Below are positions 19,945-23,272 of a stretch of 64,000 nucleotides of DNA, in pieces. Every line of letters starts with the position of its first letter. The first letter of the stretch is position 1. The notes under the pieces were generated by a model. The model did not search any database. It saw only the letters and a list, made by a program, of their open reading frames with translations, and was not told where the DNA came from. Source of the stretch: Escherichia coli 042 (lineage in GTDB: Bacteria; Pseudomonadota; Gammaproteobacteria; Enterobacterales; Enterobacteriaceae); NCBI RefSeq assembly GCF_000027125.1, contig NC_017626.1; one strand, given 5' to 3'. Both the position numbers and the translations under genes were made by a program.

Positions 19945-20520
19945 TCAACGCCTGATAAGCGGTTGAACTTTGTTATCAATAGCTTCCCTCGCTCGGAAGA
20001 TACGTGAACGCACCGTACCTACCGGACAATCCATGATAGCGGCTATCTCTTCATAGCTCAGGCCATCCAGCTCCCGCAAGGTTATTGCCATGCGTAAATC
20101 TTCCGGGAGGGACTCAATAGTTCGGAAAACTATCTGTCTCAGTTCTTCTGACAACATTAAGTTCTCAGGGTTCGAAATTTCTTTCAACGCGCCGCCACTT
20201 TCGAAGTTTTCAGCTTCAATGGCATCCACATCACTGGAAGGTGGACGACGCCCCTGAGCAACCAGGTAATTTTTCGCTGTATTTACAGCAATCCGATACA
20301 GCCATGTATAAAAAGCGCTATCTCCCCGGAACGAATCCAGCGCACGATAGGCTTTAATAAAAGCTTCTTGTACCACATCGGGAACATCACCCGACGGCAC
20401 ATAGCGGGAAACCAGACTCGCCACTTTATGCTGATAGCGCACTACCAGTAAGTTAAAGGCTTTCTGATCTCCCTTCTGGACCCGTTCAACCAGGACCTGG
20501 TCCGTTAACTGCTCGCTCAT
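19945..20520 (-). CDS. rpoE: RNA polymerase sigma-E factor
   Basis: ORF 19945..20553; start trimmed to MSEQLTDQVLVERVQKGDQ (191 aa). Confidence 0.95.
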   Translation of the reverse strand: MSEQLTDQVLVERVQKGDQKAFNLLVVRYQHKVASLVSRYVPSGDVPDVVQEAFIKAYRALDSFRGDSAFYTWLYRIAVNTAKNYLVAQGRRPPSSDVDAIEAENFESGGALKEISNPENLMLSEELRQIVFRTIESLPEDLRMAITLRELDGLSYEEIAAIMDCPVGTVRSRIFRAREAIDNKVQPLIRR

Positions 20521-20602
20521 CCGAGGTAAAGTCTCCCCAAACCAAATTTCCACGCGCTATCGAAACGCCACTCCATTAGCTGCAATTTGAGCAAGCAAAG
20601 GG

Positions 20603-20630
20603 TTAGAGTGTCTCGTTTTTGTAAAGTTCC
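20603..20630 (-). promoter_or_regulatory. Sigma-E-dependent rpoE promoter
   Basis: Minus strand reads GGAACTT, 16-nt spacer, TCTAA, matching the sigma-E consensus. Confidence 0.7.
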
Positions 20631-20903
20631 GTAACGCATCTGTTTTTGTTTGTCATGCTGTAGACGGATCATTATCTATCATTATAAGTCTACAGAATCT
20701 GAACATCGCATTATCTGTGTAGAAATGCCCATTTAACTGCCTGAAGAGTAACCCAACGGCCTTTTTATTTCACCACCTAATCCTCCACCAGCCAGTAACT
20801 TCTCTTTTTCTCGCCGCCCTGCGTCAGCGTGTTTAGCCACTGTAACAAATATTAAAATAGTAGGTGTTTAATCGCACAACATGATGCTATGCTGACCAAA
20901 CCG

Positions 20904-23272
<2,369 letters not shown>

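What the first reader, a model, noticed from the sequence alone, without database searches (positions are those of the whole stretch)
20517..20630. Sigma-E promoter and a short upstream ORF translationally coupled to rpoE
On the minus strand the spacer reads GGAACTT-N16-TCTAA (sigma-E autoregulated promoter). Downstream of it a 19-codon ORF (ATG at 20576; MEWRFDSAWKFGLGRLYLG) ends with its TGA overlapping the rpoE ATG (ATGA), the signature of a leader peptide; K-12 literature describes such an rpoE leader ORF (rseD), though I cannot confirm its exact start.
Basis: partly seen in the sequence, partly recalled or inferred. Interest (0 to 1): 0.35.

Follow-up and report, generated by a model that had tools for sequence, protein, structure and literature searches.

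The report
Known rpoE sigma-E promoter inside rseD
This is the well-known self-activating promoter of the E. coli envelope-stress sigma factor gene rpoE, and the short upstream reading frame is the tail of the already annotated 51-codon leader gene rseD, so the finding is real but ordinary.

Summary
The window is E. coli. The 196 nt around the finding are 100% identical to K-12 MG1655 and at least 99% identical in 5,425 complete genomes. The motif GGAACTT-N16-TCTAA is exactly where stated, unique in the window, and conserved at a fixed distance from rpoE in 27 of 32 Enterobacterales. It is the known sigma-E autoregulated rpoE promoter. The 19-codon ORF also exists, but its frame stays open up to ATG 20672. 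That 51-codon ORF is rseD (b4725, NCBIfam NF033697), the published rpoE leader ORF. The promoter lies inside rseD, with the predicted start at 20596/20597 in codon 26, so sigma-E transcripts cannot encode full RseD. ATGA is not diagnostic: 41 of 46 non-enterobacterial rpoE genes have it without a long uORF. The peptide shows no coding-type selection (variable sites 11/12/13 by codon position, against 6/1/51 in rpoE). The frame ending at the rpoE start is nevertheless kept open across the order, so translation rather than the peptide seems to matter. Neither candidate start has a Shine-Dalgarno. The rpoE ribosome site is predicted to be structured. Verdict: already known, start misplaced, low interest.

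The parts
20624..20630 (-). -35 element GGAACTT of the sigma-E-dependent rpoE promoter. It is read as rseD codons 15-17 (Gly-Thr-Leu).
   Evidence: Invariant GAACT core in 32 Enterobacterales. Consensus.
20603..20607 (-). -10 element TCTAA, 16 nt downstream of the -35. It lies within rseD codons 22-24.
   Evidence: TCNAA is conserved at this position.
20596..20597 (-). Predicted sigma-E transcription start, 5-6 nt after the -10. This gives a 76-77 nt leader and falls in rseD codon 26.
   Evidence: Inferred from the 5/6-nt discriminator rule of Rhodius et al.. Not measured here.
20517..20672 (-). rseD: 51 codons plus a TGA stop that overlaps the rpoE ATG (ATGA at 20520-20517).
   Evidence: ORF. 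(annotated as rseD/b4725). (NF033697, 104 bits against a cut-off of 35). (translation reported).
20517..20576 (-). It is the only in-frame AUG-initiated version available on sigma-E transcripts.
   Evidence: No SD (duplex dG +1.6). The ATG is conserved only in Escherichia and Citrobacter.
20589..20596 (-). GCTTGCTC box at the 5' end of the sigma-E transcript, nearly invariant. It is predicted to pair (as 20597-20589) with 20518-20510, the G of the rpoE AUG plus codons 2-4.
   Evidence: Compatible with pairing, but no compensatory changes were seen.
20533..20538 (-). rpoE Shine-Dalgarno GGGGAG, 12 nt from the AUG.
   Evidence: duplex dG -8.5 kcal/mol. (literature: SD distant from the AUG).
20519..20542 (-). 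Hairpin pairing 20542-20535 with 20526-20519. It covers the SD G-run and the AU of the rpoE AUG, and corresponds to the U-rich bulged stem of the polyamine literature.
   Evidence: 93% of cells paired..
20520..20574 (-). Four GGA motifs (20574-20572, 20551-20549, 20536-20534, 20522-20520) that are candidate CsrA sites. The last two overlap the SD and the start codon.
   Evidence: Sequence. The literature reports three CsrA sites, two over the SD and AUG.
19945..20520 (-). rpoE coding sequence (191 aa plus stop).
20655..20698 (-). Imperfect palindrome enclosing a conserved TATAAT box (20686-20681) and the rseD ATG (20672).

Best explanation
The interval holds the sigma-E-dependent, positively autoregulated promoter of rpoE. 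This is the one called P2 in the older literature and P6 by Klein and Raina. It is embedded in the coding sequence of rseD, the known 51-codon leader ORF (20672-20517), whose UGA overlaps the rpoE AUG.

Shown here or in cited sources:
- The motif, its conservation and the rseD annotation.
- The reports that rseD is translated.
- The reports that CsrA binds over the rpoE SD and AUG.
- The report that the SD is unusually far from the AUG, within a bulged stem.

Inferred:
- Ribosomes that start at the rseD AUG on transcripts from upstream promoters read through the promoter sequence and the leader. They melt the hairpin over the rpoE SD and AUG and terminate on AUGA. This hands the rpoE start to a ribosome by re-initiation or simply by unfolding the site, and so raises rpoE translation.
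- What selection preserves is the act of translation into the rpoE start, not the peptide.
- Transcripts made from the sigma-E promoter itself begin at about 20596/20597, inside rseD codon 26, and lack the rseD start. On these, rpoE must be translated by direct initiation at its own strong but badly spaced and structured SD.
For: Identity: the region is 100% identical to K-12 MG1655 and at least 99% identical in 5,425 genomes. rseD is annotated at exactly these coordinates. The NF033697 hit scores 104 bits against a cut-off of 35.

Promoter: the match is unique and fits the consensus with the preferred 16-nt spacer. The motif is present at -103 to -113 in 27/32 Enterobacterales and 0/49 others.

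Literature:
- The operon is rseD-rpoE-rseABC, with all promoters upstream of or within rseD.
- There are six promoters, and P6 is the autoregulated one.
- rseD was validated by a lacZ translational fusion and detected by PIRT-Seq.
- EcoCyc lists rseD as a leader peptide.
- CsrA sites overlap the SD and AUG.
- The SD is distant from the AUG and joined to it by a bulged stem.

Translation rather than peptide:
- Variable sites by uORF codon position are 11/12/13, against 6/1/51 in rpoE.
- Conserved residues coincide with the -35, the -10 and the GCTTGCTC box.
- The frame ending at the rpoE start is open for at least 17 codons in 24/27 lineages, against 29/54 for the other frames (Fisher p=0.0025, Wilcoxon p=5e-4). 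This holds in 14/15 distant genera.

Structured RBS: both helices appear in the MFE and centroid folds. The predicted cost to open the rpoE RBS is 12-18 kcal/mol.
Against: - The primary papers (Yakhnin 2017, Klein 2016, Terui 2009) are not in the library. The more-than-50% loss of rpoE translation on uncoupling, and the mapped start sites, rest on my memory and on secondary citations.
- Neither the rseD ATG nor ATG 20576 has a Shine-Dalgarno, so how rseD is initiated is unexplained.
- The RNA helices have no compensatory substitutions, and the whole-leader fold is not more stable than shuffles (z about -1).
- Rare E. coli and Shigella alleles truncate or frameshift rseD (P0006, P0003), so coupling is dispensable at least in some strains.
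- The frame-openness statistics are only crudely corrected for phylogeny.
Confidence: 0.85

Rival explanations
1. One reading: on sigma-E transcripts a 19-codon ORF starting at AUG 20576 is translated, and this short ORF is what couples to rpoE.
For: - It is the only in-frame AUG downstream of the predicted sigma-E start.
- The frame is kept open across the order.
- 30S binding there would have to melt the 5' arm of the predicted helix that covers the rpoE start.
- By my count from the in-frame starts listed, about 23 of 32 Enterobacterales have an in-frame ATG or GTG between the predicted start and rpoE.
Against: - There is no Shine-Dalgarno (dG +1.6).
- The ATG is absent at the homologous position in Enterobacter, Pluralibacter, Pseudescherichia and others.
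- A GGA motif, a possible CsrA site, overlaps it.
- No record or family model uses this start.
- No initiation-profiling data could be retrieved.
Confidence: 0.3
2. RseD is a functional small protein of the envelope stress response, and its sequence matters.
For: It is translated. It is nearly invariant within E. coli and is named as an equivalog family.
Against: - Substitutions show no codon-position bias (11/12/13).
- Conserved residues map onto promoter and RNA elements.
- Named homologues occur only in Escherichia, Shigella and Citrobacter.
- Indels that are not multiples of three scramble the peptide in other genera while the frame stays open.
- The invariance within E. coli extends equally to the non-coding elements.
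Confidence: 0.07
3. The ORF is incidental. The open frame is a by-product of nucleotide constraints (promoter, SD, CsrA sites, hairpins), and coupling contributes little.
For: There is no coding signature. ATGA is forced by rpoE codon 2. Natural truncated and frameshifted alleles exist. rpoE has its own strong SD.
Against: The overlapping frame is significantly more open than the two control frames, including in genera where the sequence has diverged. Translation of rseD is reported by two independent methods.
Confidence: 0.1

Closest known systems
Sigma-E-dependent rpoE promoter of E. coli K-12 (old rpoE P2; rpoEP6 of Klein and Raina)
   Same: The sequence is identical to K-12. It has GGAACTT, a 16-nt spacer and a TCNAA -10, as in the published consensus. 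It is described as the autoregulated promoter.
   Different: Nothing differs. This is that promoter.
rseD (b4725), the rpoE leader peptide of Yakhnin et al. 2017; NCBIfam NF033697
   Same: Same 51-codon ORF, same position, and same ATGA overlap with rpoE.
   Different: The full ORF starts 42 nt upstream of the -35 element.
Translationally coupled overlapping gene pairs (AUGA-type stop/start overlap, termination-reinitiation)
   Same: The stop and start overlap, the downstream RBS is predicted to be structured, and the upstream ORF is translated.
   Different: The upstream ORF has no conserved protein product and contains a promoter for the downstream gene, so only some transcript isoforms can be coupled.
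Attenuation leader peptides (trpL, hisL, pheL type)
   Same: It is a short ORF in the leader of a regulated operon, and EcoCyc lists it among the 'leader peptides'.
   Different: There is no terminator-like hairpin with a T-run between the ORF and rpoE, and no run of regulatory codons in the peptide. It does not work as an attenuator.
Polyamine-modulon initiation regions (oppA, rmf, cpxR, rpoE)
   Same: The SD is 12 nt from the AUG and a U-rich bulged stem joins them.
   Different: This is the same rpoE element already described. The coupling and CsrA layers act on the same 30 nucleotides.

Membership tests
Sigma-E (RpoE) dependent promoter | -35 GGAACTT | tested here: met
   Exact match at 20630-20624. 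Consensus.
Sigma-E (RpoE) dependent promoter | Spacer of 15-19 nt, with 16 preferred, then a TCAAA-like -10 | tested here: met
   16 nt, then TCTAA (4 of 5 consensus positions) at 20607-20603. TCNAA is conserved in 27/32 relatives.
Sigma-E (RpoE) dependent promoter | Transcription start 5-6 nt after the -10, dependent on sigma-E in vivo or in vitro | not testable with these tools
   The start is only predicted (20596/20597). Sigma-E dependence is taken from the literature. The primary mapping papers are not held.
RseD leader peptide (NCBIfam NF033697, b4725) | Score above the curated cut-off of the family model | tested here: met
   104.2 bits against a cut-off of 35, for the 51-aa ORF, residues 7-51. 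The 19-aa version is too short to scan.
RseD leader peptide (NCBIfam NF033697, b4725) | Lies immediately upstream of rpoE with its stop overlapping the rpoE start | tested here: met
   TGA 20519-20517 over ATG 20520-18. Same layout as MG1655.
RseD leader peptide (NCBIfam NF033697, b4725) | Start codon as annotated, 152 nt before the rpoE ATG | tested here: met
ATG 20672 corresponds to MG1655 2710164.
Translational coupling | Downstream translation falls when upstream translation is blocked | not testable with these tools
   Reported by Yakhnin et al. 2017 (more than 50% loss; from my memory of the abstract, paper not held). Only the lacZ validation of rseD is cited in a held paper.
Translational coupling | The upstream ORF is kept open up to the downstream start in relatives | tested here: met
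   24/27 lineages have at least 17 codons open, against 29/54 in control frames, p=0.0025. Phylogeny is only crudely controlled.
Attenuation-type leader peptide | Intrinsic terminator and alternative hairpins between the leader ORF and the structural gene | tested here: not met
   No terminator-like site in 20400-21000. The ORF overlaps rpoE directly.
CsrA-repressed leader | GGA motifs over the SD and the start codon | tested here: met
   GGA at 20536-20534 and 20522-20520, plus two more upstream. Binding itself is taken from the literature.
Conserved RNA structure (any Rfam family) | Match to a curated covariance model | tested here: not met
   No Rfam hit at E<=1 in 20300-21000.

The most novel reading that the evidence does not exclude
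Promoter choice decides how rpoE is translated.
- Transcripts from upstream promoters carry the rseD start and are coupled.
- The sigma-E autoregulatory transcript starts inside rseD. Its first nucleotides (UGCUUGCUC, nearly invariant across Enterobacterales) pair with the G of the rpoE AUG plus codons 2-4.
- This isoform would therefore be translationally self-occluded. The predicted unpaired probability of the AUG is 0.09, against 0.76-0.93 in longer transcripts. The predicted cost of opening the RBS is 18 against 12 kcal/mol.
- That would damp the positive feedback loop, unless initiation at the SD-less AUG 20576, loss of CsrA, or polyamines or heat open the structure.

The evidence does not exclude this. 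It rests on conservation and thermodynamic prediction only.
Probability: 0.25. Interest if true: 0.5.

Novelty: already known. Interest (0 to 1): 0.15.

Why it matters
Sigma-E is essential in E. coli and toxic in excess, so its synthesis is controlled at many levels. This finding re-identifies two published control elements, the autoregulated promoter and the rseD leader ORF, so it adds nothing new in itself.

The useful corrections are these:
- The promoter lies inside rseD.
- ATGA is forced by the rpoE sequence.
- The peptide is not under protein-level selection.
- The stress-induced transcript cannot make full-length RseD.

If the predicted pairing between the 5' end and the start codon is real, it would explain how a positive feedback loop on a dangerous sigma factor is restrained at the translational level.

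Tried and rejected
- **Primary papers not in the library:** Yakhnin 2017, Klein 2016, Terui 2009, Thomason 2015, Meydan 2019, Weaver 2019 (mBio) and Hemm 2020. I therefore obtained no mapped start sites and no initiation-profiling data.
- **Supplements:** those of PIRT-Seq and of Stringer 2021 do not mention rseD or rpoE, and the Weaver preprint has no supplements held.
- **Sigma-70 promoter and terminator scan of 20400-21000:** no sites. The conserved TATAAT has no recognisable -35.
- **Rfam:** no family match.
- **Covariation test of the two leader helices:** 94.5% of cells are paired, against 42-52% when slid, but there are no compensatory changes. The structure is compatible, not proven.
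- **5'-arm/start-region duplex outside Enterobacterales:** not above shuffled controls.
- **RNAalifold on the palindrome around the rseD start:** no consensus. A per-sequence duplex test was used instead.
- **Attenuation-type leader peptide:** rejected, because there is no terminator and no regulatory codon run.
- **Functional RseD protein:** considered and judged unlikely.

Full report
**Source and context.** The window is an Escherichia coli chromosome. A 551-nt query around the finding matches 5,425 of 5,426 complete E. coli genomes. The 196 nt at 20505-20700 are at least 99% identical in all 5,425 matching genomes and 100% identical to K-12 MG1655, so the K-12 literature applies directly. 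On the minus strand the order is rpoE (ATG 20520), rseA, rseB, rseC. nadB is divergent on the plus strand, with its ATG at 20928.

**Checking the observation.** GGAACTT (20630-20624), a 16-nt spacer and TCTAA (20607-20603) are present exactly as described. This is the only match in the window, against 0.03 expected. ATG 20576 opens MEWRFDSAWKFGLGRLYLG, and its TGA (20519-20517) overlaps the rpoE ATG. The same frame, however, stays open for 52 codons, and the first ATG is at 20672. That gives MIRLQHDKQKQMRYGTLQKRDTLTLCLLKLQLMEWRFDSAWKFGLGRLYLG.

**What it is.**
- RefSeq annotates exactly this 156-nt CDS as "rseD: rpoE leader peptide RseD".
- MG1655 carries it as b4725 at 2710009-2710164, which maps onto window 20517-20672.
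- It scores 104 bits against a cut-off of 35 on the NCBIfam equivalog NF033697.
- rseD was annotated in all 60 genomes sampled across the ranking.
- Held papers describe the operon as rseD-rpoE-rseA-rseB-rseC, with all promoters "upstream of, or within" rseD.
- They describe six promoters, of which P6 (formerly P2) is the autoregulated sigma-E promoter.
- rseD is reported as validated by a chromosomal lacZ translational fusion (Yakhnin et al. 2017) and recovered by PIRT-Seq.
- EcoCyc lists it as a leader peptide.
- From my memory of the Yakhnin abstract (paper not held), the stop of "ORF51" overlaps the rpoE start, and loss of coupling lowers rpoE translation by more than half.

**Geometry.** Rhodius et al. 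give the consensus GGAACTT, a 16-nt spacer and TCAAA, with a 5-6 nt discriminator. That puts the sigma-E start at 20597 or 20596, a 76-77 nt leader. The start falls in rseD codon 26. The -35 is read as codons 15-17 and the -10 lies within codons 22-24. The rseD ATG is 42 nt upstream of the -35. The promoter therefore lies inside rseD, and a sigma-E-initiated transcript cannot encode full-length RseD. One held paper says this promoter drives "the entire rseD-rpoE-rseABC transcript", which the sequence does not allow.

**Comparative evidence.** I fetched rpoE loci from 80 species.
- The sigma-E motif is present at -103 to -113 from rpoE in 27 of 32 Enterobacterales and in 0 of 49 other gammaproteobacteria under the same strict pattern.
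- ATGA at the rpoE start occurs in 41 of 46 non-enterobacterial loci. There the overlapping frame is open for a median of only 9 codons. ATGA follows from rpoE codon 2 being AGC and is not a leader-peptide signature.
- The 51-codon ORF is confined to Escherichia, with Citrobacter using a nearby ATG. Named homologues come only from Escherichia, Shigella and Citrobacter. In Enterobacter a 2-nt length difference changes the frame, and the overlapping ORF is 38-44 codons with ATG or GTG at -62.
- Variable sites in the uORF frame fall 11/12/13 on codon positions 1/2/3, against 6/1/51 in the first 60 rpoE codons. The conserved residues are the -35 (GTL), the -10 (TLT), a GCTTGCTC box (CLL) and the SD region (LGR.YLG). 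There is no sign of selection on the peptide.
- The frame that ends on the rpoE start is nevertheless open for at least 17 codons in 24 of 27 collapsed lineages, against 29 of 54 for the two control frames (Fisher p=0.0025; Wilcoxon p=5e-4). This holds in 14 of 15 distant genera whose peptide is unrelated. That pattern fits selection for translation into the rpoE start. The correction for phylogeny is crude.

**Initiation signals and RNA structure.**
- Neither the rseD ATG (duplex dG +0.5 kcal/mol) nor ATG 20576 (+1.6) has a Shine-Dalgarno. rpoE has a strong one (GGGGAG, -8.5), but it lies 12 nt from the AUG.
- The literature places rpoE in the polyamine modulon for that reason and describes a U-rich bulged stem joining the SD and AUG. 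This corresponds to the hairpin 20542-20535 with 20526-20519 that I obtain in every fold.
- Four GGA motifs lie in the leader. Two are over the SD and the AUG, as reported for CsrA, and one is over ATG 20576.
- The sigma-E leader folds so that its 5' end (UGCUUGCUC, 20597-20589) pairs with the G of the rpoE AUG plus codons 2-4 (20518-20510). This appears in the MFE, the centroid and the RNAalifold consensus.
- That duplex is -12 to -22 kcal/mol and beats shuffles (p of 0.02 or less) in 28 of 32 Enterobacterales, but is absent elsewhere. Siccibacter has a different arm that pairs in a shifted register.
- On the alignment, 94.5% of cells pair, against 42-52% for slid controls, but there are no compensatory changes. 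The structure is compatible, not demonstrated.
- The predicted unpaired probability of the rpoE AUG is 0.09 on the sigma-E transcript and 0.76-0.93 on longer ones. Opening the RBS costs 18 against 12 kcal/mol. These numbers are thermodynamic predictions.
- No Rfam family matches the region, and no terminator-like hairpin is present, so this is not an attenuator.

**How it most likely works.**
- Shown: the promoter motif and its conservation, the rseD ORF and its annotation, and the stop/start overlap.
- From the literature: sigma-E dependence, translation of rseD, CsrA binding, the polyamine-responsive stem, and coupling (the last from memory).
- Inferred: ribosomes that translate rseD on transcripts from upstream promoters unwind the structured rpoE initiation region and terminate on AUGA, which promotes rpoE initiation. 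Sigma-E transcripts lack the rseD start and depend on direct initiation, with a possible contribution from AUG 20576. I put the chance that AUG 20576 is used at a meaningful level at about 0.3.

**Verdict.** Both elements are already known. The start of the uORF and its relation to the promoter were misjudged, and ATGA was over-read. Interest is low. The one lead worth testing is the conserved 5' box that may occlude the rpoE start specifically on the autoregulatory transcript.

Noticed in passing
window 20655-20698 (minus strand), and the same position in L002-L018 and L040: An imperfect 21-nt-arm palindrome encloses a conserved TATAAT box (20686-20681) and the rseD ATG (20672). Its outer arms differ between genera (CUGUAGAC, ACAGAC, AGCGGAA, CGCGAAA) but still pair in 16 of 17 Enterobacteriaceae (p of 0.06 or less against shuffles). 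In four genera the rpoE-sense strand pairs better than the antisense strand, which suggests G-U pairs and therefore an RNA hairpin. RNAalifold found no consensus. Function unknown.
   Followed up: partly
window 20681-20686 and 20672: The TATAAT box ends 8 nt before the rseD ATG, so a transcript starting 6-8 nt downstream of it would carry a 5' UTR of only 1-3 nt. Full-length rseD, which has no Shine-Dalgarno, might then be translated from a leaderless or nearly leaderless mRNA. No recognisable -35 was found, and no start-site data could be retrieved.
   Followed up: partly
P0006, P0003 and P0004, homologous to window 20517-20672: Rare natural alleles break the stop/start overlap. One is a 40-aa E. 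coli RseD that ends after ...RFDSA (seen on 20 contigs). Another is a frameshifted 64-aa Shigella flexneri form that runs into rpoE out of frame. There is also a 48-aa in-frame deletion allele. Coupling is therefore dispensable in some strains.
   Followed up: no
window 20147-20174 (minus strand, inside rpoE): By eye, CGAACCC, a 16-nt spacer and TCAGA lie where the second sigma-E promoter (rseA P3, 228-nt 5' UTR) should be, with its start predicted at 20140. This is a known element that I did not test.
   Followed up: no
window 20865-20872 and 20914-20921: A perfect 8-nt inverted repeat, TGTTTAAT / ATTAAACA, with 41 nt between the arms lies just upstream of the nadB start. It resembles a NadR-type operator. 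That resemblance is from memory and was not tested.
   Followed up: no
window 20505-20700 compared with 20400-20950: The 196 nt covering rseD, the sigma-E promoter and the leader are at least 99% identical in all 5,425 matching E. coli genomes. The wider 551-nt stretch is only 95-99% identical in 3,695 of them. The leader is much more constrained than the rest of the intergenic region.
   Followed up: no
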